DNA of 64,000 nucleotides, from NCBI GenBank assembly GCA_035627015.1, contig DASPMO010000039.1, forward strand, positions 11,470 through 75,469, given 5' to 3'. Below the pieces are notes generated by a model. That model was not told where the DNA came from, made no database searches, and worked only from the letters and a program-made list of their open reading frames with translations. The first letter of the stretch is position 1. Each line of letters begins with the position of its first letter. Below are positions 2 to 51,065 of this stretch, one piece after another. This DNA is from Thermoanaerobaculia bacterium. GTDB lineage: Bacteria > Acidobacteriota > Thermoanaerobaculia > Gp7-AA8. Made by a program: the position numbers and the translations under genes.

Positions 2-358
2 GCCCCCATCAGCGGCATCGTCGACGTGCTGGCCGCCCGCGCGGGGGAGTTCGTCGAGGCCGGCCAGCCGGTGGTCACGCTCATCGATCCCGACGACCTC
101 TGGGTGCGCGCCGACGTCGAGGAAACGTACATCGACCGCGTGCGCATCGGCGACAAGCGCACCGTGCGACTCCCCTCGGGCGAGGAGCGCCTGGGCACCG
201 TCTTCTACCGCGGCGTGAACGCGGCCTTCGCCACGCAGCGCGACGTCAGCCGCACCAAGCGCGACATCAAGACCTTCGAGATCCGCCTGCGCGTCGACAA
301 CGCCGACCGCCGGCTGGCCGTCGGGATGACCGCGTACGTGCTGCTCCCGGTGCAATGA
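2..358 (+). CDS. HlyD-family efflux membrane-fusion protein, C-terminal part (5'-truncated by window)
   Basis: Open frame from window edge; GEFVEAGQPVVTL..DDLWVRADVEE..RVRIG..LAVGMTA pattern; stop overlaps ATG of next gene (ATGA). Confidence 0.85.
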   Translation, partial: APISGIVDVLAARAGEFVEAGQPVVTLIDPDDLWVRADVEETYIDRVRIGDKRTVRLPSGEERLGTVFYRGVNAAFATQRDVSRTKRDIKTFEIRLRVDNADRRLAVGMTAYVLLPVQ

Positions 359-1344
359 ACGCCATCGAGGTGCGGAGCATCGTCAAGCGGTTCGGGCAAT
401 TCACTGCCGTCAACGGCGTGAGCTTCGACGTGGCGGCGGGCGAGTTCTTCGGCCTCCTCGGCCCCAACGGCGCGGGGAAGTCGACGCTGATCCGCATCCT
501 CACCACCCTCCTCCCCCCCACCGGGGGGAGCGCGAAGGTCGGCGGCTTCGACATCGTCACCGAGTCGCACGCCGTGCGCGGCGCCATCGGCGTCATCCCG
601 CAGGCCATGACCAGTGACCTCGACCTCAGCGTCGAGGAGAACCTGATCATCTTCTCCAAGCTGTACGGCGTGCCGCGCGCCAGGCGCACGCGCCTCATCC
701 ACGAGCTGCTGGAGGCGGTCGACCTGCTGCAGTGGGCCGGCAAGCCGGTCAAGTTCCTCTCCGGCGGCATGCGCCGGCGCGTGGAGATCGCCCGCGGCCT
801 CGTCTCCGAGCCGCGCGTCCTCTTCCTGGACGAGCCGACCACCGGGCTCGATCCGGCCTCGCGCGTGGCCGTGTGGGAGATGCTGCGGCGCATCAAGTCG
901 GAGCGCGACCTGACCATCCTCCTGACCACGCACTACATGGACGAGGCGGACCAGCTCTGCGACCGCATCGCCATCGTCGACCACGGCGAGCTGAAGGCGC
1001 TCGACTCGCCGCTGAAGCTCAAGGCTTCGGTGCCGGGGAAGAACGTCATCGAGGTGAGCTTCGCCACGCCGCCGCAGACGTGGGCGCAGACGCTGCGCGC
1101 GCTGCCGAATGTCGACGACGTGGAAGGCGACGACGGCGTGTTCCGGGTCCGCTCGCAGGACGGACCGGGGACGACCATGCGCATCATGGAGGCGGCCGGA
1201 CGCGCGGGGGTTCCGGTGCTGTCGCTGGCCGTGCACAGCACCTCGCTCGACGATGTGTTCATGCACTGCACCGGCCGCGCCCTGCGCGACGAGCTGCAGA
1301 AACCGAGCGTGATGGAGAGCCCGTTCCTGGTGCGGAGAGCCTGA
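355..1344 (+). CDS. ABC-2 type exporter ATP-binding subunit (DrrA-like)
   Basis: Walker A GPNGAGKST, signature LSGGMRRR, Walker B LFLDEPT, H-loop TTHYM. Confidence 0.95.
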   Translation: MNAIEVRSIVKRFGQFTAVNGVSFDVAAGEFFGLLGPNGAGKSTLIRILTTLLPPTGGSAKVGGFDIVTESHAVRGAIGVIPQAMTSDLDLSVEENLIIFSKLYGVPRARRTRLIHELLEAVDLLQWAGKPVKFLSGGMRRRVEIARGLVSEPRVLFLDEPTTGLDPASRVAVWEMLRRIKSERDLTILLTTHYMDEADQLCDRIAIVDHGELKALDSPLKLKASVPGKNVIEVSFATPPQTWAQTLRALPNVDDVEGDDGVFRVRSQDGPGTTMRIMEAAGRAGVPVLSLAVHSTSLDDVFMHCTGRALRDELQKPSVMESPFLVRRA

Positions 1345-1345
1345 G

Positions 1346-2458
1346 ATGCATCGGACCTGGGCCATCATCGAACGCGAGCTGCGCCGCTTCCGGCGCAATC
1401 CGACGATGATCGTCCTGTCGATGCTGCTGCCGGTCATCCAGCTCTGCATCCTCGGCCACGCCATCGGCGGCAACGTCAAGCATCTCAAGGTCGGCATCGT
1501 CGACCAGGATCACGGCCTGCCGGCGGTGAGGCTCCGCGAGCTGGCCGGCGCGGTGACCTCCGGCGCCCGGACGTTCGACACGATCGAATACTCCGATTCC
1601 GGCCGGGCCCTGGAGGACCTCCGCGACGGGCGGCTGCACGCGGTGCTGATCATCCCCCCCGATTTCTCGCGCCGCGTGCACCAGGGCAACCAGCCGCGCA
1701 TCGCACTGGTCGAGGACAACACCGACAACTTCGTCTCGGCCGCGCTGGTGGCGCAGATGAACGGTCTGCTGGCCGCGTTCAACACTCCCGCGGCGCCGCC
1801 GCGCGTCGTCGACGAGGCCACGCTGCAGGTGGTCGAGGTCTATCCCTATATCCCCTACGTGCAGTACCTGCTGCCCGGCTCGATCGTGATGTCGATCTTC
1901 ACCATGGTCATGATCGGCGGCGGCATCAACTTCGTCGACGACAAGGCGCACGGGCTGCACGAGGGCTACCTGGTCACGCCGATCACGAAGCTGGAACTGA
2001 TCGCCGGCTTCAACATCGCCGGCACGCTGAAGGCCGTCATTGCCGGCACGGCGCTGATCCTGGTGGGGACGGTCATCGCCGGCATCCCCAACGCCCTCGA
2101 GCCGGTGCGGCTGCTGAAGCTCGGCGTGGTGGTGGTCATCACCGCCTTCGCCCTCATCAGCCTGATGTTCCTGCTGATGGTGCGCATGTCGAACCCGATG
2201 GTGCCGCGGGCGATGTTCGGGGTGCTGAGCACCGTGCTCTATTTCCCCAGCGGCGCGGTCTATCCGCAGGAGGGCTTTCCGGCCTGGCTGCGCGCGATCG
2301 CGATCGTCGACCCGTTCACGTACGCCGTGCACGCGCTCCGCAGCCTGCTGCTCAAGGACAGCGGCCTGGCCGCCATCAGCGGCGACCTGCTGTTCCTGCT
2401 CGCCTTCTCGGCCATCGCCATGACCGCGGCGACCCTGCTGTTCCGGCGGACGCTTTGA
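1346..2458 (+). CDS. ABC-2 type exporter permease
   Basis: N-terminal TM helix, extracytoplasmic loop, five C-terminal TM helices, YFPSGAVYP and [11 protein letters not shown] motifs; directly follows ATPase. Confidence 0.92.
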
Positions 2459-2546
2459 GGAGTCCGGCTTGTCCGCTCCTGCGAAGGGCAGTACCATCCT
2501 TCCTGCCGTCCAACAGGATCTCCGTCGGAAAATCGTGAGCAGCCGC

Positions 2547-12445
<9,899 letters not shown>

Positions 12446-12473
<28 letters not shown>

Positions 12474-14647
12474 GAGCTCTCCGCGAGACAACTCTCCAAA
12501 AACGCCAGCGCTCCCGGGAGCGCGGCGCTCACGTAGTCCCACGTGTGCCCGCCGCGCAGCTCGCGGTAGTCGTGGCGGACGCCGAAACCGGTCAGGAGCC
12601 CGTGGAAGTCGCGCACCGTCTCCACCACGCGCGGGTAGTCGCCCGCACCGACGTCGAGGTGGAGGCGCGGCGCCGGCTGTCCGCCGGCGGCGAACCGTTC
12701 CACGACGGAAAGCGGATCGTACTCCGCGCGCGTCCTGCTGCCGGGCGGGCCCCACACCGCCTCGTGCGCCGCCACGTCGGGCATGAGCAGGTCGCGCGAG
12801 CCGCGCTCCGCCGCGTACGGATCGCCCTCGCGGCGCGCGGCGTAAAAGGCGCCCGCGTGCGCGAAGGCGGCGCCGAAGAGGTCCGGGCGCCGCAGCGCGT
12901 GGAAGACTGCGGCCGCGCCTCCCATCGAGAAGCCGCCGATGAAGCGCGTGGCCCGCGTCGTGGCCGGCGCGAATTCCGCCTCGATCGCGGGCAGCAGCTC
13001 GTCGAGGAGATAGCTCCCGTAGCGGCGTCCCTCCTCGTCGTCGATGAACCAGCGCCGCCCGCTCTCCGGCATCACGAACAGCAGCGGCAGATGGGACGCC
13101 AGGAACGCCAGCGGCGTACGCTCCGACCACGCCTTGAAATTGCCGGCGTAGCCGTGCAGGAGGTAGCAGACGCCCTCGATCCTGCCGTCGCGCGGCATGA
13201 GCAGGCGGACGTACTTGTCGCGGCCGAGGAGCGCGCTGCGGGACGAGCGGTCCGTGCTGTCGAGGGACTGCAGCGCCTTGCGGTCGATCTTGCCGCGGTC
13301 GTTGCGGGGCATCGCCTCCACGTGAATCCAGACCGAGGGCGTCATGTACGCCGGCAGCGCGCGGCGGCATTCCGCGTTGAGCTGCGATGTCGGCACGTCG
13401 CCGATGACGAAGGCGGCCAGCGACGTTTCGCCGGCCATCGTGTACGGCACCACCGCCACTTCCTGCACGCCCGGGAGCCCCGCCACGACGGTCTCGATCT
13501 CCCCCGGCTCGACGCGGTAGCCGCCGACCTTGACCATGGCGTCGGTGCGGCCGACGAAACGGAGGGTGCCGTCCGCCTCGGCCTGCACCGAGTCGTTCGT
13601 GCGGTAGAACGTCTGCCCCTCCTCTTCGACGAGACACTCCCGCGTGCGCTCGGGATCGCCCCAGTAGCCGGACATCAGGCTCCCGCCTCCGGCGTAGAGC
13701 ACGCCGTCGCGGATGAACAGCGACGCGTACGGACAGGCCCGCCCGATCGGCACCGACCCCTCGGGCGGATCGGAGGGCTGCACCTCGTGCGCCGTGACCA
13801 CGTTCGTCTCCGTCGGCCCGTACCAGTTGTGGATGCGCGCCGCGGGGAAGGACTTGCGGATCACCGGCAGCGCGCCGCCGCGGAAGGCCTCCCCCGCCAC
13901 GATGAGCTGGCGCACGGAGGTCAGCTGGCGCCCGTCGCGCGCGCAGACCTCGGCCATCTTGGTCACGATGGAGGGGACGGAGTACCAGACCGTGATGCCC
14001 TGGCTCTCGACGAGATGCGCCAGGAACGGGGCCATCCCGCGCTGCAGTTCCGGCACGAGCACGATCGTCGCGCCACTCACGAGCGACGAGTAGATGTCGA
14101 AGATGGAGAGGTCAAAGGCGAACGAGGCGTGGCTGGAAACGCGGTCGTGCTCCGTCAGCCCCGTGTACTCCGCGGCCCAGTCGACGAACGCCGCCGTGGC
14201 GCCGAGGCTGATGGCCACGCCCTTCGGCTTCCCCGTGGAGCCCGACGTATAGAGGATGTTGAGGAGGTCCGTCGAGGCCACGTTTGCCAGCGGGACGTCG
14301 GCGCCGGCGGACAGGTTGGCGAGGTCGCCGGTCCTGAAGAAGGCGGCCGGCTCGCAGTCGCGCAGCATCAGCTCCAGGCGCGGTCCCGGGGTGACGGGGT
14401 CGATCGGCACGCACGCCGCGCCCGCCCACTGCGTCCCGAGGAGCGCCGCCACCGCGTCGGCCGACTTTTCGATGTCGATGGCCACGCGGCTTCCCGGCCC
14501 GATGCCCCCGCCGTGGAGAAAGGCGGCCACGCTGCAGGCGCGCTGCAGCAGCTCCCCGTACGTGACCGTCGTGCTCCCGTCGATCAAAGCGACGCGCTCC
14601 GGCTGCCTGCCGGCGACGTCGGCGAATCTGGCGGCAAGGCTCTTCAT
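12446..14647 (-). CDS. Stand-alone adenylation enzyme (prolyl-AMP ligase/DltA-like) fused to C-terminal alpha/beta-hydrolase esterase
   Basis: Start MKSLAARF overlaps upstream stop; [37 protein letters not shown]; by-eye pocket DLFYIAWVVK; C-terminal LLHGYAG...MPESG...GFSMGG...GGHTW esterase. Confidence 0.88.
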
Positions 14648-15765
14648 AGTCCCAGCTCGTGCGCGATCATGACCCGCTGCACCTCCGCCGTCCCGGAGTA
14701 GATCAGTCCTCCGATGGCCCCGCGCAGCTCGCTCTCGATTCCCGCCTCGGCCATGTACCCGTAGCCGCCGTGCACGCGCAGCGCGTCCATGTGCTGCTGC
14801 ACGCCCGCCTCGGCGAGCATCAGCTTCGCGGCCGAGATGCGGGCCACGGTCAGCTCCTCGGAATCGCGCATCAGCGCGTTCTCGCGCAGGAAGGCGCGCA
14901 CCGTGATGTAGCGGACGTACATGTCGGCGATGCGCGACGAGACCATCTGCAGCTTGCCGATGGGACGCCCGTTCACGCGGCGCTCGCGGGCGTACTCGAC
15001 GGCGCGCTGCGTCTGCCGCTTCATCGCGCCGAGGAGCGGGGCCAGGATGAACAGCCGCTCCCACTGCATCGCGCAGGTGAAGACGTCCCGCCCGCCGTCC
15101 CTCGCGCCGAGCATCCGGTCGCGCGGCACGACCGCGTCCCGCAGCGCCACCGACGACAGCATCGAGCCGTCCAGGCCGAGCTTCCGCTCGTCCGGGCCCG
15201 TGGTGATCCCCGTATCGCCCGCCTCGATGAGAAAGGCGCTCGCGCCGCGGGAGCCGAGGAGCGGATCGCGCGTGGCGAAGAGGAGGAACAGGTCCGCGGC
15301 CGGGGCGTTCGTGATGAACAGCTTCAGCCCGTCGATCGTGTAGCCCTTCCCCGTCTCCGCGTAGCGCGTCGAGGCCGCGCCGGAGTTGTTCTCCGACTCC
15401 GTCATGGCGTGCGCGCCGATCCACTGGCCGTTCATCAGCGGCGGGAGGTAGCGCTGGCGCTGCTCCGGGGTGGCGAAGTGCACGATCGGCTGGATCACGG
15501 CCCAGAGATGCGCGCCGAGGGCGAAGAGGAGGCCGTCATTCGAGCAACCCTCGCCGAGACCTTCGAGCACCTCGAGGATCTCGACGTTGGTGAAGCCGTC
15601 GCCGCCGAGCTCGCGCGGCACGGCCATGCTGAACAGGCCGAACTCCGCGCAGAGCTTCCACGCTTCGCGGAGACGGCGCTGTTTCTCGTGCGGATCGGCG
15701 GCCGGTGCAGGAGCCGCCGGAAGCTTCCTGGCGAACTCTCGAGCGGACTCCTGCAACGGCGACAT
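14644..15765 (-). CDS. Acyl-CoA dehydrogenase family, prolyl-S-carrier dehydrogenase-like (PltE/RedW/AnaB type)
   Basis: EGLGEGCSNDGLLFALGAHLW, IGAHAMTE, KLFITNAP, QWERLFI, HGGYGYM, IYSGTAEVQR; next to Pro-type ligase and carrier. Confidence 0.85.
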   Translation of the reverse strand: MSPLQESAREFARKLPAAPAPAADPHEKQRRLREAWKLCAEFGLFSMAVPRELGGDGFTNVEILEVLEGLGEGCSNDGLLFALGAHLWAVIQPIVHFATPEQRQRYLPPLMNGQWIGAHAMTESENNSGAASTRYAETGKGYTIDGLKLFITNAPAADLFLLFATRDPLLGSRGASAFLIEAGDTGITTGPDERKLGLDGSMLSSVALRDAVVPRDRMLGARDGGRDVFTCAMQWERLFILAPLLGAMKRQTQRAVEYARERRVNGRPIGKLQMVSSRIADMYVRYITVRAFLRENALMRDSEELTVARISAAKLMLAEAGVQQHMDALRVHGGYGYMAEAGIESELRGAIGGLIYSGTAEVQRVMIAHELGL

Positions 15766-15782
15766 GGCGGGCCAGGCCGCGG

Positions 15783-17138
15783 TCAGATCGCCTCCTCCAG
15801 CTGTTCGTTCCGCTGGCGGAGCAGCGTGAGGCTGCGGGCGATGTTCGCTTCGTCGGGGAGACCGTCGTCGATCTCCGAGTTGAGGTACGCGTCGTACGAC
15901 GAGAGGTCGAGCAGGCCGTGGCCGCTGACGTTGGCCAGGACGGAGATGGGCGTGGTCGCCTCGCGCGCGGCGTCCGCCGCCGCGGCCAGGGCGTGCGCCG
16001 ACTCCGGCGCCACGATCATCCCCGTGCTGCGCGCGAACAGGACGGCCGTCTCGAAGACCTTGCGCTGCGGGAACGAGCGCGCCTCGAAGAGACCGTCCTG
16101 GTACATCGCGCTGAGCAGCGGCGAGGTGCCGTGATAGCGCAGGCCGCCGGCGTGAATTCCCGGCACGCTGACGTCGCGGCCGAGGGTCATCATGCGCACG
16201 TACGGCGTCGTGCTGGAGGCATCGCTCATGTCGTACGCGTAGAGGCCGCGCGTGAGCTTCGGGCAGGCCACCGGCTCCGCGGCGATGATGCGCACGTTCC
16301 GCCCCGACTTGCGGCTGTTGCGGATGAAGGGGAAGGAGATGCCGGCGAAGTTGCTCCCCGCGCCGACGCAGGCCGTGACGACATTCGGATAGTCGCCGAT
16401 CTCCTCCATCTGGTTGACCGCCTCCTGCCCGATGATCGTCTGGTGCAGGAGGACATGGTTCTCGCCGCTGCCGACGGCGAAGCGCGCGCCGGCGACGCTG
16501 CGGGCGATCTCGATCGCCTCGCCGTTGGCGATGGAGAGGCTGCCGATGCGCTGCGGGTCCTTGATCCGTCCCGCGCGCCCGACCTCGGTCACCTCGCTGG
16601 GGCTCTCGTGCACCTCGCCGCCGTAGACACGCATCATCACGGGGCGCAGCGGCTTCTGGCGATAGCTGACGCCGACCATGAACACGGTCGCGCCGAGGCC
16701 CGCGCGGCCGCAGGCCCACGAGATCGCGGCGCCCCACTGGCCGGCGCCGGTGCCGGTGACGATCCGTTCGACGCCGGCCTTCTTGAAGTAGTAGGCCTGG
16801 GCGATGGCGCTGTTCAGCTTGTGGCTGCCGGCGGCGTTCTGCCCTTCGAACTTCACGTAGATGCGCGACTTCGTGCCGAGGGCCTGCTCGAACGCCTTGG
16901 CGCGGATGAGCGGCGTCGGGCGGTACATCGAGTAGAGCTCGAGCACGTCGTCGGGAATGGGGACCTCGGCGCGGTCGGCCGAATTGGCCTGGCGGAACAG
17001 CTCCAGCGTCAGCTGCGGGCGGACGTCGGTGGTGCGGCCGCCGGCCGCGATCTCCAGGCGCCGCGGCGCGGGATCGCGCCGCGCGTACGCCGGAAAGTCG
17101 TGGAGGATGTTGCACCAGGTCTCGACGCGCGAGGTCAT
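15783..17138 (-). CDS. TrpB-like (TrpB2) PLP-dependent beta-substitution enzyme with Glu-to-Gly change
   Basis: YRPTPLIRA, KFEG...GSHKLN (PLP Lys), TGTGAGQWG (canonical TETGAGQWG), CVGAGSNFAG, HAGGLRYHG, APESAHA, NVSGHG. Confidence 0.9.
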   Translation of the reverse strand: MTSRVETWCNILHDFPAYARRDPAPRRLEIAAGGRTTDVRPQLTLELFRQANSADRAEVPIPDDVLELYSMYRPTPLIRAKAFEQALGTKSRIYVKFEGQNAAGSHKLNSAIAQAYYFKKAGVERIVTGTGAGQWGAAISWACGRAGLGATVFMVGVSYRQKPLRPVMMRVYGGEVHESPSEVTEVGRAGRIKDPQRIGSLSIANGEAIEIARSVAGARFAVGSGENHVLLHQTIIGQEAVNQMEEIGDYPNVVTACVGAGSNFAGISFPFIRNSRKSGRNVRIIAAEPVACPKLTRGLYAYDMSDASSTTPYVRMMTLGRDVSVPGIHAGGLRYHGTSPLLSAMYQDGLFEARSFPQRKVFETAVLFARSTGMIVAPESAHALAAAADAAREATTPISVLANVSGHGLLDLSSYDAYLNSEIDDGLPDEANIARSLTLLRQRNEQLEEAI

Positions 17139-17455
17139 TCCATCTCCTCGGCACGGCAGACAGCGAGGGTGCGGTTCACGACGTCGCCCACCGTCCGGAT
17201 GTCCCCCAGGAGGTCTTCGTCATCGAAGCGGCAGCCGAGGCGCGACTCGATCGACGTCCACAGCTCGAGATACTCCAGCGAGTTGAGGCCCAGCTCGACG
17301 AAGAGCGTTTCGCAGTCGGAGATCGTCTCCGGATCCCGCCCCTGCGGCATCAGCTCGCAGAGAGCGGTGCGCACGGCGTCTCCCACCCTCTGGACGTCGG
17401 CGGTCTGAGCGACATCGGCGATTTGCAGCACATTCGTTCCGTGGCTGTATTGCAT
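17135..17455 (-). CDS. Stand-alone carrier protein (ACP/PCP)
   Basis: LFVELGLNSLEYLELWTSIESRLGCRF...IRTVGDVV carrier fold with Ppant Ser in NSL motif. Confidence 0.8.
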   Translation of the reverse strand: MQYSHGTNVLQIADVAQTADVQRVGDAVRTALCELMPQGRDPETISDCETLFVELGLNSLEYLELWTSIESRLGCRFDDEDLLGDIRTVGDVVNRTLAVCRAEEME

Positions 17456-17472
17456 GACAATCCCCTTCCCCT

Positions 17473-18741
17473 CTACGTCGAGTAAATGTATTGATCGACT
17501 CCCGGCTCGCGCGCCACGCCCGCCCGCTTCTCGGTCTGTTCGACCACTTCCGCGAGCACGGCGTCCGAGACCGGGTAAAACGTCGGGAACAGCAGTTCGT
17601 CGGGAGAGTCGGTGATGACTCCCTGTTTGACGGCGATGCGCGCGAGCTCCGTGCGCGGATAGATGCGCACGCGCTCGGTGACGTCAACGGCGTCGAAGCC
17701 CATGACGTCGCAGGCCTCGAACGAGCGGCGCACCGTGTCGACGGTCTCGCTCGGATGGCCGAACAGCAGGCTGCAGGAGACGGGAGCGCCGCGCTCGTGG
17801 CACATGTCGACGGCGCGCTGCACGTCCGCCACCGTGTAGCCCTTGTGGATGGCGAACAGCACCGGGTCGGCCAGGCTGTCCACGCCGAAGTGGAAGCGCT
17901 TCCGCCCGGAGGCCATGGCCACGTCGATGAACTCGGGGGTGAAGGCATTCGGGTGCGGGTTGAAGAAGCCGTCCCACTCGATCTCGACGCCGCTGTTGAT
18001 GATCTCGCGCAGCAGCGCCGTCGCCGCCTTGACCGGTACGTTGAAGACCGAGTCGCAGAAGAAGACGCGCTTCACGCCCTGGCGCTTGAGGTTGCGGATC
18101 TCGGCCACGACGTCGGCCGGCGAGCGGTGCGTGATGCGGAACCCCTCCACCGCCGGGTAGTTGCAGTACTGACAGCGGAACGGGCAGCCGAAGTGCGTGG
18201 CGATGCCGATAGGGTGGTCCCGGTATTTGCTCTTCTCGACGTACGGCCGCTCGTACACGCCGTTGATCGTGTCCGAGTAGTCCTCGAAGACCGGCGCCGC
18301 CGCGGCCTCGCCGTTCAGGACGTGGCGCACGAGCATGCGCGCCGCGTTGTGGCCCTTGCTGGCGATGGCGTAGTCGGCGCCGAGGTAGCGGCGCATCGGG
18401 TCGGGCACGGCGTTGATGGCGGCGCCGGCGATGGCGATCGGCACCAGCGGATAGCGCTCGCGCAGCTCGGAGACGAGACGTCTGGTCTGCGGCAGGGCCG
18501 AATCCACGTTGCCCGGGCCGATGTCGAGGTTGCGCACCACGACGAAGATCAGGTCGATCCCATAGCCGTCCGGATACGGTGCCGCCGCACCGTCGGCCAG
18601 GTTGGCCAGGTCGACGATCTCGATGTCGTGGCCATCCCGCACCAGCGCCTCGGCGTTGTATTCGAGGCCCACGGGAAATACGGGCGGCAGCATGAACGCC
18701 GGGTTGACGATCAGGATGCGCGCGCTCTGGCGAACGGTCAT
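17473..18741 (-). CDS. Cobalamin-binding radical SAM enzyme (TsrM-like N-terminus)
   Basis: GCPFRCQYC CxxxCxxC motif, FFCDSVFN, HFGVDS; N-terminal NP..PP..P.GL...RNLD B12-binding-like domain; ATG overlaps upstream stop. Confidence 0.85.
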   Translation of the reverse strand: MTVRQSARILIVNPAFMLPPVFPVGLEYNAEALVRDGHDIEIVDLANLADGAAAPYPDGYGIDLIFVVVRNLDIGPGNVDSALPQTRRLVSELRERYPLVPIAIAGAAINAVPDPMRRYLGADYAIASKGHNAARMLVRHVLNGEAAAAPVFEDYSDTINGVYERPYVEKSKYRDHPIGIATHFGCPFRCQYCNYPAVEGFRITHRSPADVVAEIRNLKRQGVKRVFFCDSVFNVPVKAATALLREIINSGVEIEWDGFFNPHPNAFTPEFIDVAMASGRKRFHFGVDSLADPVLFAIHKGYTVADVQRAVDMCHERGAPVSCSLLFGHPSETVDTVRRSFEACDVMGFDAVDVTERVRIYPRTELARIAVKQGVITDSPDELLFPTFYPVSDAVLAEVVEQTEKRAGVAREPGVDQYIYST

Positions 18742-19409
18742 GCGGAAGGACCTCCAGTCCTGCACAGCTCGAGGCAATCGGTCAGGGTGGCTTGAACTCT
18801 CTCCCGCGGCACGCCCTCGATGCCCCAACTGAAGGCCAGGACCGCCGTGGTGGTGGGCACGATCATGGTGTGCGCGGAGTCGCGTACGCCGACGATGGAG
18901 ATGACGCGCTCCCGGTCGCGGAGCACCGGGAACCCTTTGGGGACGGCTTCGCTCTTGGTCTTGCCGAGGGGGACGATCTGCTCATCGCCATTCGCGATGT
19001 CGAGCGTGAGGTCGCCATCGATCGCATGAAGGTCGAAGAGGCCGACCGGAATCAGGTTGCGCAGCGAGGCCACGTTCGCGGCGTCGACGAGGGAGTTGAT
19101 GCGGGGGAACTTCCCCTTCATCACGTAGCGGGTGACCACATTCTCCACGGCGGGGACCGCGGCGCCGAATTGCTCGGAGAAGCGGCGACTCAGTTCGCGG
19201 TAGAGGGGGATCTCCGGTGCGCCGGCGACGTCGGCGGCCGTGCGCCCGCTCCAGCGGGCCAGGAGGTCGCGGACCGCATCATCGAGCCAGGGAGAGTCCT
19301 TTGACGCCGAAACGCCGTCCGCCGTGACGCTTTCGACGAACAGCCCGGGGACACGGACACGCACGTCCTGCGCGATGACGATGATCGGGTTTAGGGCGAT
19401 GGTGTTCAT
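18738..19409 (-). CDS. Stand-alone B3/4 (PheRS beta editing-like) domain protein
   Basis: PAVENVVTRY..GKFPRINSLVDAANVASLRNLIPVGLFDLHAIDGDLTL..A.GDE....LG....VLRD motif typical of B3/4 domains. Confidence 0.88.
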   Translation of the reverse strand: MNTIALNPIIVIAQDVRVRVPGLFVESVTADGVSASKDSPWLDDAVRDLLARWSGRTAADVAGAPEIPLYRELSRRFSEQFGAAVPAVENVVTRYVMKGKFPRINSLVDAANVASLRNLIPVGLFDLHAIDGDLTLDIANGDEQIVPLGKTKSEAVPKGFPVLRDRERVISIVGVRDSAHTMIVPTTTAVLAFSWGIEGVPRERVQATLTDCLELCRTGGPSA

Positions 19410-19545
19410 GGTGTTACGTCGTGCGCTCCCCCGCACAGAGTGCTGATTCCACACGTCTCCCGTGACGAGCAGGCACACATCTGCCCCTCGTCTGCCGTGG
19501 CACTTATAGTGAAAATAGCTGTCTACTATTGAACCTTGACTGTGC

Positions 19546-19574
19546 AGTATAGGTCGATACGCACACTAACACAA
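19546..19574 (-). promoter_or_regulatory. Candidate sigma70 promoter for the leftward B3/4-to-ligase operon
   Basis: Minus strand TTGTGT (19574-19569), 17-bp spacer, TATACT (19551-19546) in a conspicuously AT-rich intergenic stretch. Confidence 0.5.
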
Positions 19575-19716
19575 GGCCATAACTATATGTTTCCTTCTGC
19601 TTCGCGTTGATGGATCATTCACGGCGCGTCTGCGGACCGCAACGTACGGTCGGAAGGCGTGTCTCCCCCGATGACGTTCTCCGGACTTCCATCCATCCCA
19701 CCAAAAACGGAGACCC

Positions 19717-20023
19717 ATGCAGACGGCCACCGGCAAGCACGTGCTGCTCCGGCAGACCGACGAGAGCAACTGGGACCGTGATCAACTCCGCCGACACGCG
19801 CGAGGAAGGGATGTGGCTCCGCGGCGCGTGGTACACGGCCGCCAACGGTGGATCCGACGGACGCTGGGTCCAGCTCTTCGACGACCGCCCCGCGTACGAG
19901 GCCTCGCCCCCGCCGGTGGTCTGCTCCTCGACCACCCAGCAGCAGTGTGAGATCAAGGGCGGCACGTGGAACCCGACCACGTGCTCCTGCAGGGCTCTCT
20001 GCTCCGGCTGTCAGATTTCCTGA
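19717..20023 (+). pseudogene. Probable frameshifted small gene or gene remnant with Cys-rich C-terminus
   Basis: MQTATGKHVLLRQTDESNWD joins other-frame VINSADTREEGMWL...CSSTTQQQCEIKGGTWNPTTCSCRALCSGCQIS at about 19776; ends just before a strong hairpin. Confidence 0.4.
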
Positions 20024-20036
20024 GGCATTCCGAGTG

Positions 20037-20068
20037 GGCGTTGTTGGCGGGAAACCGTCAACAACGCC
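20037..20068. terminator. Stem-loop between convergent genes (putative bidirectional terminator)
   Basis: GGCGTTGTTGGCGG-GAAA-CCGTCAACAACGCC, 14-bp stem with one G-U pair. Confidence 0.65.
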
Positions 20069-20105
20069 ATTCACCTTACGGTTCAAGAAGAGCGCCGGCC
20101 GCACC

Positions 20106-20546
20106 CTACCGGTCCGGCCGTCCCATCAGGCACATCACCGTCTCGGTCCCGATCGCGCACACCGTTTCGGCGCCGTCCTTCGTCACCGTCACACGGAACT
20201 CGCAGACGGTGAGGGTGCGGCCGGAGCGCACCACCTGGCCGGTGGCGCGGAGGCGGTCGCCGTCGGCGGGAGCGACCATGTTGATCTTGTACTCGACGCT
20301 GAGGACTGAGCTGTCCGTGGGCATCATCGAGTAGCCGGCGTAGCCGGCCGCGCTGTCGGCGATGATGGCCACGACGCCTCCGTGAAAGTAGCCGTGCTGC
20401 TGCGTGAGCTCGGGGCGGAACGGGAGCTCGATCTCGACGAGGCCCGGCTCGACGCGCGTCATCGTCGCGCCGAGGTAGTCCATCACGGCCTGGCGCGCGA
20501 AGCTCTCGCGCACGCGGGCTTCGAAGCCGGGATCGCGGGGCGTCAT
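20106..20546 (-). CDS. PaaI-family hotdog thioesterase
   Basis: QQHGYFHGGVVAIIADSAAGYA, SVEYKINMVAPA.GDRLRATGQVVRSGRT; ATG overlaps FAAL stop. Confidence 0.92.
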   Translation of the reverse strand: MTPRDPGFEARVRESFARQAVMDYLGATMTRVEPGLVEIELPFRPELTQQHGYFHGGVVAIIADSAAGYAGYSMMPTDSSVLSVEYKINMVAPADGDRLRATGQVVRSGRTLTVCEFRVTVTKDGAETVCAIGTETVMCLMGRPDR

Positions 20547-22135
20547 CGCGCCGACTCTACCCATTCGCGGCAGCGGTAGCGCTGGATTTTTCCGCTGGTG
20601 GTCCGGGCGATGGAGCCGCGGGGCAGCCAGTGGATGGTCACGCCGGAGATCCCGTAGGCCTCGGCCAGCACCGCGCGCGCGTGCTCCTCGACCGCGGCCG
20701 CGTCGGCGCGCGGCACCGATTCCGATTCGACCAGTACGTGGAGCATCTCCGTCTGCGAGTGTGGGTCCGGCACGCCGCACGCCGCCACGCCGCCGGCGAT
20801 CCCTCCTCCGACGATCGGCTCCACGAGAGCCTCAACCTGCACGGGACTGATGTTGCGCCCTCCGATGATGATGATGTCCTTGATCCGGCCGGTGACGTAC
20901 AGCTCCCCGCCGGAGAGATACCCGAGGTCGCCGGTGCGGAGAAAGCCATCCTCCCGTTTCAGCTCGCCGTCGCCCTCGCCCCAGTAGCCGTCGATCACGC
21001 TCGGTCCGCGCACCTCGATCTCGCCGACCTGCCGCTCGGGCAGCGGCCGGGCCTCGCGGTCGACGATCCGTACTTCATGTCCCGGAACCGCGCTGCCGAC
21101 CGAGACCACCCCCTCGTTCTCATCGACGCCGTACAGCGCATCGGGATCGGGGATCGTCACCGCCAGCGTGGCCTCGGCCAGCCCATACACCGGCAGCATG
21201 GTCTCGGGGCGGAACCCGTGACGGCCGAAGGCCTCGATGAAGCGCGCCAGCGTCGACCGGCGCACCGGCTCCGCGCCGCACAACGCCACCCGCCACGACG
21301 AGAGGTCGAGGTCTTCGACCGCGCGCCGCGCCGCGACGCGCGCGCAGACCTCGTAGGCCGAATTCGGCGCGGGCGACAAGGTGCCGCGGTGGCGGCTGAT
21401 CGTGCGCAGCCACGAGAGCTGATTGCGCACGAACGTCGCGGGATCGCTGGCCACGAGCGGACACTGCCAGCCGAGGGCGTAGGAGATGCCGATGATGCCC
21501 ATGTCGTGAAAGAACGGCAGCCACGTGACCAGGACGTCGCCGTCGCGATGGCGGATTGCCCGTCCGATCGCGTCCACGTTCGCGGCGATGTTGCGGTGCC
21601 GGACGATCGCCAGCCGCGGCGTGCGCGTCGAGCCGGACGTCGCTTGGAGATGCGCGATGGCGTGCGGATCGGCGGTGAGTGGGAGCGGCGCACCGTCGCT
21701 CTCGCAAAGCTCGTGTGCCGTCACGCACTGCAGCACTGAGAACTGCGGCGCCGGCGGCCACGACTTGCCGACGATCCACCGTGCGCCCGCGACCTGCGCG
21801 AGCTGGTCGAGTGGCGGCGCGTACGGCACGGAGGGGCGATTCGGCCGCTCGGGGCGCGGAGCGGCGACGACGATCGGCACCACGCCCGAGAAGAGCGCCC
21901 CGAAGTAGACGGCGAAGAACTCGCGCGACGTCGGCAGGGCGCCAAGGAAGCGGTCGCCGCGGCGGAGTCCGCGCGCGGCGAGCCCCGCCGCGGCGCGCGA
22001 GGCCTCGCGGTAGAGCGCCTCGTACGAGAGCGCCTCTTCCTCCCCCGCTCCGGCCACGATGCGGATCGCGGTCTGCTCCGGCGCACGCGCCAGGCTGTCC
22101 GCGAACGCATCGAGCACCGTGGCGTGGCGCATCAT
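20543..22135 (-). CDS. Fatty acyl-AMP ligase (FAAL)
   Basis: LQATSGST, WLPFFHDMGII, LCGAEPV, VYGLAEATLAV, LRTGDLGY, RTTSGKIQR. Confidence 0.9.
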   Translation of the reverse strand: MMRHATVLDAFADSLARAPEQTAIRIVAGAGEEEALSYEALYREASRAAAGLAARGLRRGDRFLGALPTSREFFAVYFGALFSGVVPIVVAAPRPERPNRPSVPYAPPLDQLAQVAGARWIVGKSWPPAPQFSVLQCVTAHELCESDGAPLPLTADPHAIAHLQATSGSTRTPRLAIVRHRNIAANVDAIGRAIRHRDGDVLVTWLPFFHDMGIIGISYALGWQCPLVASDPATFVRNQLSWLRTISRHRGTLSPAPNSAYEVCARVAARRAVEDLDLSSWRVALCGAEPVRRSTLARFIEAFGRHGFRPETMLPVYGLAEATLAVTIPDPDALYGVDENEGVVSVGSAVPGHEVRIVDREARPLPERQVGEIEVRGPSVIDGYWGEGDGELKREDGFLRTGDLGYLSGGELYVTGRIKDIIIIGGRNISPVQVEALVEPIVGGGIAGGVAACGVPDPHSQTEMLHVLVESESVPRADAAAVEEHARAVLAEAYGISGVTIHWLPRGSIARTTSGKIQRYRCREWVESAR

Positions 22136-25063: not shown

Positions 25064-25081
25064 GCGCGGACTCCTTTCCGG

Positions 25082-26305: not shown

Positions 26306-26311
26306 GGAGCG

Positions 26312-26575
26312 TCAGGTCGTTTCTGCCACGCCGGAAGTGCGCGTGGCGACGTAATCCACGAGGTCCTGCATCGTCTCGATGTGCTCCATGACCGTCTCGT
26401 CGAACTCCACGCCCAGGCGGTCCTCGAGATAGAGCGTCATCTCGAACAGCTTGATGGAGTCGAGGCCCGGGATCGCCGTCGCCACGCGCGATTCGGGGCG
26501 AAGGTGCGACACGTCCTGTTCGAGGTACTCCCCGATATAGCGAACGACGTCCTGAAAGAGCGAGGCATGCTCCAT
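26312..26575 (-). CDS. Acyl carrier protein
   Basis: GLDSIKLFEMTLYLEDRLGVEFD...IETMQDLVDYV; AGGAGG RBS upstream of ATG 26575. Confidence 0.88.
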   Translation of the reverse strand: MEHASLFQDVVRYIGEYLEQDVSHLRPESRVATAIPGLDSIKLFEMTLYLEDRLGVEFDETVMEHIETMQDLVDYVATRTSGVAETT

Positions 26576-34085: not shown

Positions 34086-34093
34086 CCACGAAC

Positions 34094-39383: not shown

Positions 39384-39594
39384 GGCTGCAGTGGCAGCCC
39401 TCTACACAGCCGTCGCCGAGATCCTGCAGATCGACTCCGCGCGGCCGCAGGACAACTTCATCGAGCTCGGAGGGAACTCGCTGCTCGCGGTCATTCTCGC
39501 CAACCGCATGGAAGACGAGTTCGGGACGCGGCTCGATGTGATGGACATCTTCAATCTCGAGCTCGGCCAGCTCGAGCCTCTGCTCGGTCCATGA
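39367..39594 (+). CDS. Stand-alone peptidyl carrier protein
   Basis: AEILQIDSARPQDNFIELGGNSLLAVILANRMEDEFG...DIF. Confidence 0.88.
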   Translation: MNRSSEAAVAALYTAVAEILQIDSARPQDNFIELGGNSLLAVILANRMEDEFGTRLDVMDIFNLELGQLEPLLGP

Positions 39595-40327: not shown

Positions 40328-40363
40328 CAATCGTTCGGAACCGAAGGATACGCGGGTGCGGCC

Positions 40364-42220: not shown

Positions 42221-42232
42221 AGTCGCTCCGTT

Positions 42233-44576: not shown

Positions 44577-44597
44577 CGGGCCGGCGATCACCCGTTC

Positions 44598-50973: not shown

Positions 50974-51065
50974 GGTGTGCGACCCGCCACGGAAATCCTT
51001 CCCCGGCGGGGAGTATCCCTCGGAGGCAAGAGAGTCGCAAGACTTCTCCATGGAGGAGAGCTTTC

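What the first reader, a model, noticed from the sequence alone, without database searches (positions are those of the whole stretch)
12446..19409. Candidate new pathway to a free non-proteinogenic aromatic amino acid (e.g. a pyrrolyl-alanine) with tRNA-editing self-protection
Seen: a tightly overlapping six-gene operon behind its own promoter, B3/4 > B12 radical SAM > carrier > TrpB-like (Glu to Gly) > PltE-like dehydrogenase > Pro-type ligase fused to an esterase. Established: ligase + carrier + dehydrogenase make pyrrolyl-2-carboxyl-S-carrier (PltF/L/E); TrpB enzymes couple a nucleophile to Ser-derived aminoacrylate; stand-alone B3/4 proteins can deacylate mischarged tRNA. Inference: proline is oxidised (and possibly methylated), released by the fused esterase and coupled by the TrpB variant. 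The product would be a Phe/Trp mimic that the neighbouring NRPS polymerises and that B3/4 keeps out of proteins.
Basis: inference. Interest (0 to 1): 0.87.

Follow-up and report, generated by a model that had tools for sequence, protein, structure and literature searches.

The report
Proline-plus-TrpB-like amino acid operon
A real, conserved six-gene operon in an uncultured Acidobacteriota genome probably builds a new ring-bearing amino acid from proline and serine, feeds it to a neighbouring peptide synthetase, and carries a likely tRNA-proofreading protein; none of this chemistry has been shown experimentally.

Summary
Six co-directional, overlapping minus-strand genes (12446-19409) encode a B3/4 protein, a class-B-like radical SAM enzyme, a carrier protein, a TrpB-like PLP enzyme, a prolyl-carrier-dehydrogenase-like ACAD and a Pro-type adenylation enzyme fused to an esterase.

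- **Conservation:** the same operon, same order, recurs on at least six further Acidobacteriota contigs, plus a seventh lacking B3/4.
- **Core cassette:** carrier, TrpB-like, ACAD, Pro-ligase and usually esterase recur in Streptomyces, Actinomadura, Myxococcus and an alphaproteobacterial-type contig. The carrier gene always sits directly upstream of the TrpB-like gene.
- **Glu-to-Gly:** this is one of three coupled changes (E129G; V225G/L226E; G260A) that define the cassette-linked clade. Ordinary TrpB2 relatives keep Glu.
- **NRPS:** every adjacent adenylation domain has the Phe-like code DTWT(V/I)AGVG, in one to four modules.
- **B3/4:** its model matches the canavanyl-tRNA deacylase CtdA over its full length (TM 0.77).

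Best reading: a carrier-templated route from Pro and Ser to a heteroaryl-alanine, then released, oligomerised and proofread. Product identity, pyrrole versus pyrroline, order of steps and B3/4 function remain inferences. I found no prior description.

The parts
18738..19409 (-). Stand-alone B3/4-domain protein (223 aa; alternative GTG start at 19478), CtdA-like fold
   Evidence: Pfam B3_4 scores 74.8 bits. About 70 close homologues are known, all Acidobacteriota/Thermoanaerobaculia, and at least 15 appear to share a contig with the TrpB-like clade, judged by matching contig lengths in the two hit tables. The AF2 model has pLDDT 90. Foldseek's top hits are CtdA 9f7e/9mkl, TM 0.77-0.78 over the full length. 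N112 and G123 align with the CtdA residues N105 and G116, which are reported as functionally important.
17473..18741 (-). Radical SAM enzyme with an N-terminal B12-binding-like domain (422 aa), CxxxCxxC = CPFRCQYC
   Evidence: Pfam Radical_SAM scores 77.6 bits; B12-binding scores 21.1 bits, below threshold. The best NCBIfam hits are all B12-rSAM families, led by TIGR04072 at 205.8 bits, and none reaches its cut-off. The best solved relative is the Trp C2-methyltransferase TsrM, 6wte, at 102 bits. The gene is 82-88% conserved in every Acidobacteriota copy, including L002.
17135..17455 (-). Stand-alone carrier protein (106 aa), attachment Ser in GLNSL
   Evidence: Pfam PP-binding scores 38.3 bits. 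The gene lies directly upstream of the TrpB-like gene in every arrangement seen.
15783..17138 (-). TrpB-like PLP enzyme (451 aa): Lys107 in GSHK; Gly129 in place of the catalytic Glu; new Glu226 (GSGEN); Ala260 (GAGSNF)
   Evidence: NF009057 scores 540 bits against a cut-off of 366. The best solved relatives are TrpB2 6hul/4qys/6hte. The clade signature is documented, and its monophyly.
14644..15765 (-). FAD-dependent acyl-CoA-dehydrogenase-family enzyme (373 aa), prolyl-carrier dehydrogenase-like
   Evidence: Three ACAD Pfam domains. The best NCBIfam hits are RedW at 308.8 bits and PigA at 280 bits, both below their cut-offs. The best solved relatives are AnaB 4irn (272 bits), then 6cxt, then PigA 5zw0.
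13259..14647 (-). Adenylation domain of the fusion protein, proline-type specificity code DLFYIAWV-V
   Evidence: AMP-binding scores 222.9 bits. In the pocket region the best solved matches are the L-proline-[carrier protein] ligases 6o6e and 7thn. Codes are extracted.
12446..13258 (-). C-terminal PF00756 esterase domain of the fusion (GFSMGG serine, GGH histidine)
   Evidence: Pfam Esterase scores 72.1 bits. Solved relatives are generic carboxyl and feruloyl esterases. It is a separate gene directly after the ligase in Streptomyces, Myxococcus and L008, at 41-48% identity.
2469..12473 (+). Convergent NRPS, (C-A-T)x3-TE, with all three adenylation codes DTWTVAGV(C/G)
   Evidence: Pfam domains are and codes. 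C1 is 70% identical to the sole C domain of the L002 NRPS. C2 and C3 are 74% identical to each other but only 43% to C1, so the modules were duplicated.
355..2458 (+). ABC-2 exporter pair upstream of the NRPS
   Evidence: Pfam ABC_tran and ABC2_membrane. The same pair sits beside the L002 NRPS at 77-79% identity.
19410..20105 (.). Upstream intergenic region; boundary to the preceding operon
   Evidence: No sigma-70 consensus site was found. A terminator-like hairpin lies at 20112-20095 on the minus strand. GC drops to 0.655 in this region.

Best explanation
The operon is a carrier-protein-templated pathway to a non-proteinogenic amino acid built from proline and a three-carbon aminoacrylate unit.

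1. **Loading.** The ligase loads L-Pro on the stand-alone carrier. This rests on the specificity code.
2. **Oxidation.** The ACAD oxidises the prolyl thioester to a dehydroprolyl (enamine/imine) or pyrrolyl thioester. This rests on family membership; the extent of oxidation is unknown.
3. **Coupling.** The TrpB-like enzyme forms PLP-aminoacrylate from L-Ser or O-phospho-L-Ser and alkylates the proline-derived ring. The ring's N-C=C unit mimics indole N1-C2=C3. The usual Glu is removed and a Glu is placed on the opposite active-site loop. This step is inferred. On-carrier coupling is favoured by the invariant carrier-then-TrpB-like gene pair.
4. **Modification.** In Acidobacteriota the B12-type radical SAM enzyme modifies the ring, probably by methylation (inferred).
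5. **Release.** The fused esterase hydrolyses the thioester and frees the amino acid (inferred).
6. **Oligomerisation.** The neighbouring NRPS has adenylation domains that all carry one Phe-like, enlarged-pocket code. It oligomerises this residue (1-4 modules in different genomes) and an ABC pump exports the product (inferred).
7. **Proofreading.** The CtdA-like B3/4 protein hydrolyses tRNA mischarged with the free analogue (inferred from fold and linkage only).
For: - **Operon reality and conservation:**
- **Pro code:** 8 of the 9 pocket residues compared match the solved L-Pro ligase 7thn, and the PltF pattern is similar. The code is conserved across cassette ligases from four phyla.
- **ACAD:** it is closest to the prolyl-carrier dehydrogenases AnaB, 6cxt and PigA and to the RedW and PigA models.
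- **Cassette spread:** carrier, TrpB-like, ACAD, ligase and esterase occur in Acidobacteriota, Streptomyces, Actinomadura, Actinophytocola, Catenulispora, Myxococcus and an alphaproteobacterial-type contig. Several of these have no NRPS, so the cassette is self-contained and ends in a hydrolase.
- **Distinct TrpB-like clade:** cassette-linked TrpB-likes are monophyletic among 85 sequences.
- **Clade signature:** they carry E129G, V225G/L226E and G260A in 17/17. E-type solo relatives have E/VL/G in 66/68. Of the 120 closest database homologues, 109 show the full signature.
- **Engineering precedent:** laboratory TrpBs that switch to phenol nucleophiles carry the same Glu-to-Gly change, E105G.
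- **Carrier pairing:** the carrier gene stays directly upstream of TrpB-like in five different gene arrangements.
- **NRPS codes:** all are DTWT(V/I)AGVG in the window, L002, L092, L094 and L095.
- **No starter C needed:** the L092 NRPS starts with an adenylation domain, so no carrier-bound starter is required there.
- **B3/4:** tight linkage, a CtdA-like fold and conserved N/G residues.
- **Concept established elsewhere:** BGC-encoded tRNA deacylases are described for the AlaX family and for CtdA.
Against: - No product is known, and nothing here tests chemistry.
- The closest solved ACAD, AnaB, performs only a two-electron oxidation to pyrroline-5-carboxyl-carrier. A pyrrole is therefore not assured.
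- On-carrier coupling followed by hydrolysis leaves a ring carboxylate. The NRPS pocket (DTWTVAGVG) has no basic residue to bind it.
- The window and L002 NRPSs begin with a C domain that needs a donor. That donor could be the cassette carrier.
- L002 keeps the five-gene operon and the NRPS without B3/4, so B3/4 is dispensable in at least one lineage.
- The ACAD and rSAM do not reach any curated equivalog cut-off.
- The placement of Glu226 at the active site rests on motif mapping to TrpB engineering positions. No measured structure supports it.
Confidence: 0.45

Rival explanations
1. Type II NRPS initiation. The modified proline-derived acyl group is never released as a free amino acid. It passes from the stand-alone carrier to the first condensation domain of the NRPS, capping a chain of ordinary Phe-like residues. 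The esterase only clears stalled or mis-acylated carrier.
For: - The window and L002 NRPSs begin with orthologous C domains (70% identity) that differ from the internal C domains. L002 has a single C-A-T-TE module and no lipid operon within 10 kb, so its C domain needs some donor.
- A stand-alone carrier beside an NRPS is the classical pyrrolyl-starter layout.
- The NRPS code is close to Phe codes.
Against: - The L092 NRPS (3899 aa) starts with an adenylation domain, not a C domain, yet sits beside the same operon with the same codes.
- The esterase is retained in almost every cassette, including NRPS-free loci (Myxococcus, L008). In Streptomyces it is kept alongside a separate type II thioesterase.
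- TrpB chemistry creates a new alpha-amino acid end. That end is what an adenylation domain with Asp235 needs.
Confidence: 0.2
2. Same pathway logic, but a non-aromatic product. The ACAD stops at the two-electron stage, as AnaB does. The TrpB-like enzyme alkylates the enamine carbon, or the ring nitrogen, of dehydroprolyl- or prolyl-S-carrier. The product is a substituted (dehydro)proline, a diamino-dicarboxylic acid or bicyclic lactam, and not a pyrrolyl-alanine.
For: - AnaB is the best solved match (272 bits against 194 for PigA), and it yields pyrroline-5-carboxyl-carrier.
- A related Streptomyces variant (L032) adds an Orn/DAP-type decarboxylase, an enzyme class that acts on diamino diacids.
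- The enamine N-C=C unit is the closest analogue of indole N1-C2=C3 (established TrpB chemistry).
Against: - The curated NCBIfam models that match best are the pyrrole-forming RedW and PigA.
- The NRPS pocket looks hydrophobic and aromatic.
- A precedent exists for B12-rSAM methylation of pyrrole-2-carboxyl units (CloN6; from my own knowledge, not tested here).
Confidence: 0.2
3. The B3/4 protein is not a tRNA deacylase. It acts in biosynthesis or quality control on an aminoacyl ester or thioester, for example aminoacyl-S-carrier or aminoacyl-AMP, or it has a binding or regulatory role.
For: - It is translationally coupled to the rSAM gene by an ATGA overlap and is restricted to the clade that also has the rSAM.
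- L002 lacks it yet keeps the pathway.
- Identity to CtdA is only 18-21%.
- The CtdA specificity residue C166 could not be aligned.
- CtdA-2 clade proteins are themselves suspected of having other functions.
Against: - The full-length fold matches CtdA better than it matches the PheRS editing domain (TM 0.77-0.78 against 0.5-0.6).
- The Asn and Gly residues important for CtdA activity are conserved.
- Every B3/B4 protein characterised so far hydrolyses aminoacyl-tRNA.
- BGC-linked deacylases are an established resistance device.
Confidence: 0.3
4. The genes are functionally unlinked. The TrpB-like enzyme is an ordinary, or merely spare, tryptophan synthase supplying Trp to the NRPS, and the proline genes make a separate pyrrole unit.
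For: Sources annotate homologues as 'tryptophan synthase beta chain'. The solved relatives are Trp-forming TrpB2 enzymes.
Against: - The catalytic Glu is absent from the whole clade.
- The trpB equivalog model scores 130 bits against a cut-off of 392, and TIGR01415 is also below its cut-off.
- The gene is locked between the carrier and ACAD genes across phyla, including loci without any NRPS.
Confidence: 0.05

Closest known systems
Type II NRPS proline-oxidation triads: PltF/PltL/PltE, PigI/PigG/PigA, RedM/RedO/RedW (pyrrolyl-2-carboxyl-S-carrier) and AnaC/AnaD/AnaB (pyrroline-5-carboxyl-S-carrier)
   Same: All have a stand-alone Pro-specific ligase, a stand-alone carrier and an ACAD-family dehydrogenase. 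The specificity code and the best solved matches agree.
   Different: A TrpB-like PLP enzyme is inserted between the carrier and dehydrogenase genes. The ligase is fused to, or followed by, a PF00756 esterase. No halogenase or PKS partner is present. The ACAD is below the curated RedW and PigA cut-offs.
Tryptophan synthase beta subunits, especially TrpB2 (PDB 6hul, 4qys, 6hte), and laboratory 'tyrosine synthases' derived from TmTrpB (E105G)
   Same: The fold and the PLP lysine motif GSHK are shared, at roughly 45% identity to TrpB2. The Glu-to-Gly change sits at the same position as in engineered enzymes that accept phenols.
   Different: This is a natural clade carrying Gly129, a new Glu226 and Ala260. 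It is always paired with a carrier protein gene. The nucleophile is presumably not indole. It falls below the trpB and trpB_rel equivalog cut-offs.
CtdA canavanyl-tRNA(Arg) deacylase (stand-alone B3/B4 protein), and BesG and other AlaX-family deacylases used as BGC markers (Nat Chem 2026, PMC13149037)
   Same: It has the stand-alone B3/B4 fold over its full length (TM 0.77-0.78) and conserved Asn and Gly residues. It sits beside amino-acid biosynthesis genes, as BesG does.
   Different: Identity to CtdA is only 18-21%. CtdA protects consumers of a plant toxin, not producers. The published BGC-mining study covered the AlaX family, not B3/B4. Activity and tRNA target here are unknown.
Clorobiocin/coumermycin CloN3-CloN7 set (ACAD, Pro ligase, carrier, B12-radical SAM methylase CloN6, alpha/beta-hydrolase CloN7) making 5-methylpyrrole-2-carboxyl. 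This is recalled from the literature and was not tested here.
   Same: Five of the six enzyme types coincide. It provides a precedent for a B12-rSAM methylating a proline-derived pyrrole.
   Different: It has no TrpB-like enzyme and no B3/4. The unit is transferred to a sugar and is not released as an amino acid.
Carrier-templated amino-acid tailoring with dedicated hydrolytic release, for example beta-hydroxytyrosine (A-PCP, P450, hydrolase) in glycopeptide clusters and coronamic acid. This is from my own knowledge.
   Same: The logic is the same: load on a free-standing carrier, modify, hydrolyse, then re-activate by NRPS adenylation domains.
   Different: Here the modification is a PLP-dependent C-C (or C-N) coupling that adds a second amino-acid end. 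To my knowledge this has not been described for a carrier-bound substrate.

Membership tests
Type II NRPS prolyl-carrier oxidation system (PltF/L/E, PigI/G/A, AnaC/D/B) | Stand-alone adenylation enzyme specific for L-proline | tested here: met
   Pocket residues DLFYIAWV-V compare with DLFYIAWVC in the solved L-Pro ligase 7thn and DLLYLALVC in PltF 6o6e. In the pocket region these two are the best solved matches.
Type II NRPS prolyl-carrier oxidation system (PltF/L/E, PigI/G/A, AnaC/D/B) | Free-standing carrier protein with a phosphopantetheine serine | tested here: met
   PF00550 scores 38.3 bits against a cut-off of 20.8, with Ser in GLNSL.
Type II NRPS prolyl-carrier oxidation system (PltF/L/E, PigI/G/A, AnaC/D/B) | ACAD-family L-prolyl-carrier dehydrogenase | tested here: inconclusive
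   The best solved relatives are AnaB (E 9e-80), 6cxt and PigA. The best NCBIfam models are RedW at 308.8 bits (cut-off 650) and PigA at 280.3 bits (cut-off 500), so neither cut-off is reached.
Type II NRPS prolyl-carrier oxidation system (PltF/L/E, PigI/G/A, AnaC/D/B) | Four-electron oxidation to pyrrolyl-2-carboxyl-S-carrier (as opposed to two-electron, AnaB-type) | not testable with these tools
   This needs mass spectrometry of the loaded carrier.
Tryptophan synthase beta (TrpB / TrpB2) | PLP-binding lysine and fold type II PLP fold | tested here: met
   GSHK107 is present. PALP scores 139 bits, and TrpB2 6hul scores 358 bits.
Tryptophan synthase beta (TrpB / TrpB2) | Catalytic Glu (E109 in Salmonella, E104/E105 in Pf/Tm) in the T-E-T-G-A-G-Q motif | tested here: not met
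   The query reads TGTGAGQWG. Gly is present in 17/17 cassette-linked sequences, against Glu in 66/68 solo relatives.
Tryptophan synthase beta (TrpB / TrpB2) | Reaches the curated trpB (TIGR00263) or trpB_rel (TIGR01415) score | tested here: not met
   It scores 130.1 against 392.45 and 471.8 against 518.85. Only the broad NF009057 'TrpB-like' model is passed, at 540 against 366.
Stand-alone B3/B4 aminoacyl-tRNA deacylase (CtdA-like) | B3/B4 fold as a free-standing protein of about 220-230 aa | tested here: met
   PF03483 scores 74.8 bits. The AF2 model has pLDDT 90.3. The best Foldseek hits are CtdA 9f7e/9mkl, TM 0.77-0.78 over 223-227 columns.
Stand-alone B3/B4 aminoacyl-tRNA deacylase (CtdA-like) | Residues equivalent to CtdA N105 and G116, shown to matter for activity | tested here: met
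   N112 and G123 in VDAANVASLRNLIPVG align with the CtdA segment VDLYNAISIEYAIPVG. N112 is invariant, and G123 is conserved in all but the two most distant of 17 homologues. Their importance is stated in PMC12449066.
Stand-alone B3/B4 aminoacyl-tRNA deacylase (CtdA-like) | CtdA specificity residue C166 and canavanyl specificity | tested here: inconclusive
   The sequence alignment to CtdA covers only residues 73-148. No residue-level structural alignment was available.
Stand-alone B3/B4 aminoacyl-tRNA deacylase (CtdA-like) | Hydrolysis of a mischarged aminoacyl-tRNA | not testable with these tools
   This needs a biochemical assay.
Class B (cobalamin-dependent) radical SAM enzymes | CxxxCxxC radical SAM cluster motif | tested here: met
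   CPFRCQYC is present, and PF04055 scores 77.6 bits.
Class B (cobalamin-dependent) radical SAM enzymes | N-terminal cobalamin-binding domain | tested here: inconclusive
   PF02310 scores 21.1 bits against a cut-off of 32.1. The top NCBIfam hits are all B12-rSAM families but below their cut-offs. The best solved relative is TsrM.

The most novel reading that the evidence does not exclude
A natural TrpB-family 'heteroaryl-alanine synthase' whose catalytic Glu has moved from the canonical strand (position 129) to the opposite active-site loop (position 226). It would couple serine-derived aminoacrylate to a carrier-bound, proline-derived pyrrole or enamine. If attack were at the carboxyl-bearing carbon, CO2 could be lost, giving a neutral pyrrolyl-alanine. 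The result would be a new aromatic amino acid that a dedicated NRPS homo-oligomerises. The operon's B3/4 protein would then be the first B3/B4-type, producer-encoded tRNA deacylase marking an amino-acid BGC.
Probability: 0.3. Interest if true: 0.88.

Novelty: new variant of a known kind. Interest (0 to 1): 0.75.

Why it matters
If the inference holds, several things follow.

- **New natural TrpB chemistry.** Nature would already have made the active-site change (loss of the indole-activating Glu) that protein engineers use to turn TrpB into synthases for other aromatic amino acids. It would have coupled that enzyme to carrier-protein chemistry, a combination I found no description of.
- **A defined clade to mine.** The cassette occurs in at least four phyla. 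Its clade has at least 120 clusters at 90% identity but only a handful at 50% identity. It therefore defines a compact, experimentally tractable family, and a three-residue sequence signature makes it easy to find.
- **A second deacylase marker family.** The linked CtdA-like protein would extend the recently published idea of tRNA deacylases as markers of amino-acid BGCs from the AlaX family to the B3/B4 family.
- **A new peptide type.** The NRPS with identical modules points to a homo-oligopeptide of a new residue, from Acidobacteriota, a phylum with few characterised natural products.

Tried and rejected
1. **Glu-to-Gly wrongly thought widespread.** After the genome scan I concluded that Glu-to-Gly also occurs in cassette-free Bacteroidales and Clostridia proteins. 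That was wrong. The scan used a second pattern (GSHKLN...), and alignment showed those solo proteins are ordinary Glu-type TrpB2.
2. **Literature.** Searches for 'TrpB-like' with BGC terms, for pyrrolyl-alanine, and for TrpB combined with prolyl, carrier and ACAD terms found no description of this cassette.
3. **Promoter.** The sigma-70 scan gave no hit, so the 'own promoter' claim stays unverified. The consensus may not apply to Acidobacteriota.
4. **Streptomyces cluster identity.** I tried to match the Streptomyces version to a known cluster. It contains a terpene synthase, an SbnA/B-like pair, a TE, the cassette, ECH, TauD and an NRPS. No match could be made with these tools. Its first NRPS adenylation codes (DAPILAGVC, DALLFVAVA) differ from the Acidobacteriota code.
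5. **Paralogy with the lipid-type operon.** The cassette rSAM is only 24% identical over 161 residues to one rSAM of the neighbouring operon, so the idea was rejected.
6. **Metagenome scan.** It returned only 10 loci, two of them long enough to be useful.
7. **Carrier-TrpB-like fusion in L032.** The upstream in-frame stretch is not a carrier domain.
8. **C1 subtype.** A solved-structure search with the N-terminus of C1 did not classify it as starter or elongation type.

Full report
**What is there.** The window has about 70% GC. Third-position GC and ORF analysis resolve six co-directional minus-strand genes between 12446 and 19409. An independent gene call on the source contig agrees (ENA metagenome assembly, L001). 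Three junctions are four-base ATGA overlaps and two are 17-base gaps.

Pfam and NCBIfam identify, in order:
- a B3/4-domain protein;
- a radical SAM enzyme with CPFRCQYC and a weak N-terminal B12-binding match;
- a carrier protein;
- a TrpB-like PLP enzyme (NF009057, 540 bits);
- an acyl-CoA-dehydrogenase-family protein whose best curated models are the prolyl-carrier dehydrogenases RedW and PigA, though below cut-off;
- an adenylation enzyme fused to a PF00756 esterase.

A (C-A-T)x3-TE NRPS (2469-12473) converges on the operon and is preceded by an ABC-2 exporter. The sigma-70 scan found no promoter. A gap of about 0.7 kb and a terminator-like hairpin after the preceding operon mark a separate unit.

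**The proline half.** In the specificity-pocket region the best solved matches are two L-proline-[carrier protein] ligases, PltF 6o6e and 7thn. Reading the Stachelhaus positions gives DLFYIAWV-V here, against DLFYIAWVC for 7thn and DLLYLALVC for PltF. Cassette ligases from other phyla carry the same type of code.

The ACAD's best solved relatives are AnaB (272 bits), 6cxt and PigA. AnaB makes pyrroline-5-carboxyl-carrier, a two-electron product (PMC3252866). PigA, RedW and PltE make pyrrole. So loading and oxidation of proline on the carrier is well supported, but the oxidation level is open.

**The TrpB-like enzyme.** It keeps the PLP lysine (GSHK) and is about 45% identical to solved TrpB2 enzymes, but reads TGTGAGQWG where they read TETGAGQWG. 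All 120 closest database homologues, down to 50% identity, have Gly or, once, Ala at this position.

I first misread a genome scan as showing Gly in many cassette-free bacteria. Alignment corrected this. Of 85 sequences, the 17 linked to the cassette form one clade. They carry three coupled changes:
- E129G;
- V225G with L226E, turning GSVLx into GSGEN;
- G260A, turning GGGSNF into GAGSNF.

Of 68 solo relatives, 66 keep E/VL/G. The full signature is present in 109 of the 120 closest homologues. At 50% clustering the clade collapses to a handful of representatives among hundreds of Glu-type TrpB2s.

By motif mapping, positions 226 and 260 lie next to TrpB active-site positions used in engineering, Tm 183/184 and 227/228. 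Laboratory TrpBs converted to phenol-using 'tyrosine synthases' carry the same Glu-to-Gly change, E105G. My inference is that the nucleophile site is rebuilt for a non-indole partner, with the acid/base group moved to the other wall. I did not verify this on a structure.

**Conservation of the set.** In Acidobacteriota/Thermoanaerobaculia metagenomes the six-gene operon recurs in the same order on L003, L092, L093, L094 and L095, and partly on L096. L002 has five genes, without B3/4.

The core of carrier, TrpB-like, ACAD and Pro-ligase recurs widely, usually with the esterase as a separate gene:
- Streptomyces, Actinomadura, Actinophytocola and Catenulispora;
- Myxococcus;
- an alphaproteobacterial-type contig, L008; a close homologue of its TrpB-like protein is annotated Bauldia sp.;
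- a glycosyltransferase-rich locus, L009, which lacks the esterase.

Accessory genes differ between lineages:
- rSAM, with or without B3/4, in Acidobacteriota;
- a PaaK-like ligase fused to the carrier in Myxococcus and L008;
- a type II thioesterase, enoyl-CoA hydratase and TauD in Streptomyces.

Two related variants, L032 and L017, combine a Gly/Ala-type TrpB-like with ACAD, PPTase, a decarboxylase or glycosyltransferases.

In every arrangement the carrier gene lies directly upstream of the TrpB-like gene. This holds even in Actinomadura, where the ACAD, ligase and esterase are inverted. That speaks for the TrpB-like enzyme working on, or docked to, the loaded carrier.

Several loci have no NRPS at all. 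The cassette is therefore self-contained and ends with a hydrolase, which suggests a released small molecule.

**The NRPS.** All three adenylation domains in the window read DTWTVAGV(C/G). The same code appears in the NRPSs beside the operon in L002 (one module), L092 (about four modules, starting with an adenylation domain), L094 and L095. C1 of the window is orthologous to the single C domain of L002 (70% identity). C2 and C3 are recent duplicates (74% to each other, 43% to C1).

The assembly line is therefore a homo-oligomeriser of variable length. Its code is closest to Phe codes (GrsA DAWTIAAIC, from the literature), with Gly at two pocket-floor positions. That suggests a larger aromatic side chain.

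It does not prove it. The domains might load Phe, and the leading C domain could take the cassette carrier as donor (rival 1). The L092 architecture and the universal esterase argue against that rival.

**The B3/4 protein.** Close homologues (65-100% identity, about 70 clusters) all come from the same Acidobacteriota clade. At least 15 appear to share contigs with the TrpB-like clade, judged by matching contig lengths in the two hit tables. The next relatives are only 40% identical.

An AlphaFold model (pLDDT 90) matches the stand-alone canavanyl-tRNA deacylase CtdA over its full length. The TM-score is 0.77-0.78, against 0.5-0.6 for PheRS editing domains. The Asn and Gly residues reported as important in CtdA are conserved.

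Producer- or consumer-encoded tRNA deacylases that guard against amino-acid analogues are established for CtdA (PMC10018355, PMC12449066). They are also established as BGC markers for the AlaX family (PMC13149037). No B3/B4 example inside an NRPS cluster turned up.

Editing is thus a reasonable but untested reading. L002 shows the protein is dispensable in one lineage.

**The other two enzymes.** The rSAM's best solved relative is TsrM, which methylates the pyrrole-ring carbon C2 of tryptophan. CloN6-type methylation of pyrrole-2-carboxyl units is a literature precedent that I recall but could not test. The esterase has the GxSxG serine and a histidine, and resembles generic carboxylesterases.

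**Mechanism and its weak points.**
- Supported by sequence, code and fold matches, not by biochemistry: gene order, domain families, Pro specificity code, clade signature, co-occurrence, identical NRPS codes and the CtdA-like fold.
- Inferred: oxidation level; that the proline-derived ring is the TrpB-like nucleophile; Ser or O-phospho-Ser as donor (TrpB2 enzymes use the latter, from my knowledge); on-carrier coupling; release by the esterase; methylation by the rSAM; uptake of the product by the NRPS; tRNA editing.

One tension remains. On-carrier coupling followed by hydrolysis leaves a ring carboxylate, yet the NRPS pocket has no basic residue. Possible ways out are ipso-attack with loss of CO2 (speculative), coupling after release, or Thr-mediated binding.

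**Wider cluster.** The block 38853-46286 contains a PhyH, a small carrier, an LCM methyltransferase, a second B12-rSAM, a free C domain, an unknown protein and a TPP enzyme. It is syntenic, at 62-86% identity, with the block directly upstream of B3/4 in L093. The operon is therefore probably part of a larger BGC, and the final product may be more complex than a simple oligomer.

**Verdict.** This is a real, conserved and undescribed gene set. I rate it a new variant of known kinds (type II NRPS proline oxidation, TrpB beta-substitution, deacylase self-protection), of high interest to natural-product enzymology.

Noticed in passing
window 20106-26575 (minus strand): A separate operon encodes an ACP, a ketosynthase, two radical SAM enzymes (one with a clear B12-binding domain), an AMP-ligase and a 4HBT thioesterase. 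It is a lipid-type (ladderane-model-like) set, closed by a terminator-like hairpin at 20112-20095. It is absent beside the cassette in L002, L003 and L093.
   Followed up: partly
window 38853-46286, and L093 1-7527: This block contains a PhyH dioxygenase, a small carrier protein, an LCM methyltransferase, a 711-aa B12-radical SAM, a free-standing condensation domain, an unknown 326-aa protein and a TPP enzyme. It is syntenic (62-86% aa identity) with the genes directly upstream of B3/4 in L093. It probably belongs to the same BGC.
   Followed up: partly
window 33246-39383: A PhyH-family dioxygenase, an A-PCP-FkbM-methyltransferase tri-domain protein (1058 aa) and a second, longer PhyH protein lie here. 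They suggest further carrier-bound tailoring chemistry in the cluster.
   Followed up: no
window 48087-49418 (minus strand): A protein combines an N-terminal TIR domain with a DeoR C-terminal sensor domain. This is an unusual fusion, next to a ChlI/ComM-like Mg-chelatase family ATPase (49459-51051).
   Followed up: no
L004 8204-9961 (Myxococcus) and L008 8216-9984: In these cassettes the carrier is fused to, or preceded by, a PaaK/CapK-like adenylate-forming enzyme of about 400-500 aa with no Pfam hit (motif TSGSTG). It is a second ligase of unknown substrate.
   Followed up: partly
L006, L090, L091 (Streptomyces angustmyceticus, S. atroolivaceus, S. microflavus): The cassette is embedded in a conserved cluster. 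It includes a terpene synthase, a polyprenyl synthase, an SbnA/SbnB-like pair (a diaminopropionate-type route), a type II thioesterase, an enoyl-CoA hydratase, TauD and an NRPS. The NRPS is over 4700 aa in L006 and L091 and 2939 aa in L090. I could not match it to a known product.
   Followed up: partly
L032 3737-12302 (Streptomyces sp. cmx-4-9) and L017 1-5229 (Herpetosiphonaceae): Sister variants of the TrpB-like enzyme (TATG or TGTG with GSGES) occur here. Their neighbours include an AMP-ligase, an Orn/DAP-type decarboxylase, an ACAD, a PPTase and an EamA exporter in L032, or an ACAD, carrier, PPTase and glycosyltransferase in L017. No esterase or NRPS is present.
   Followed up: partly
Representative proteins P0204, P0209, P0212, P0220 and others: Other TrpB2-like representatives carry Asp, Ala or Ser at the catalytic Glu position. 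These are further natural variants of the nucleophile site, and I did not examine them.
   Followed up: no
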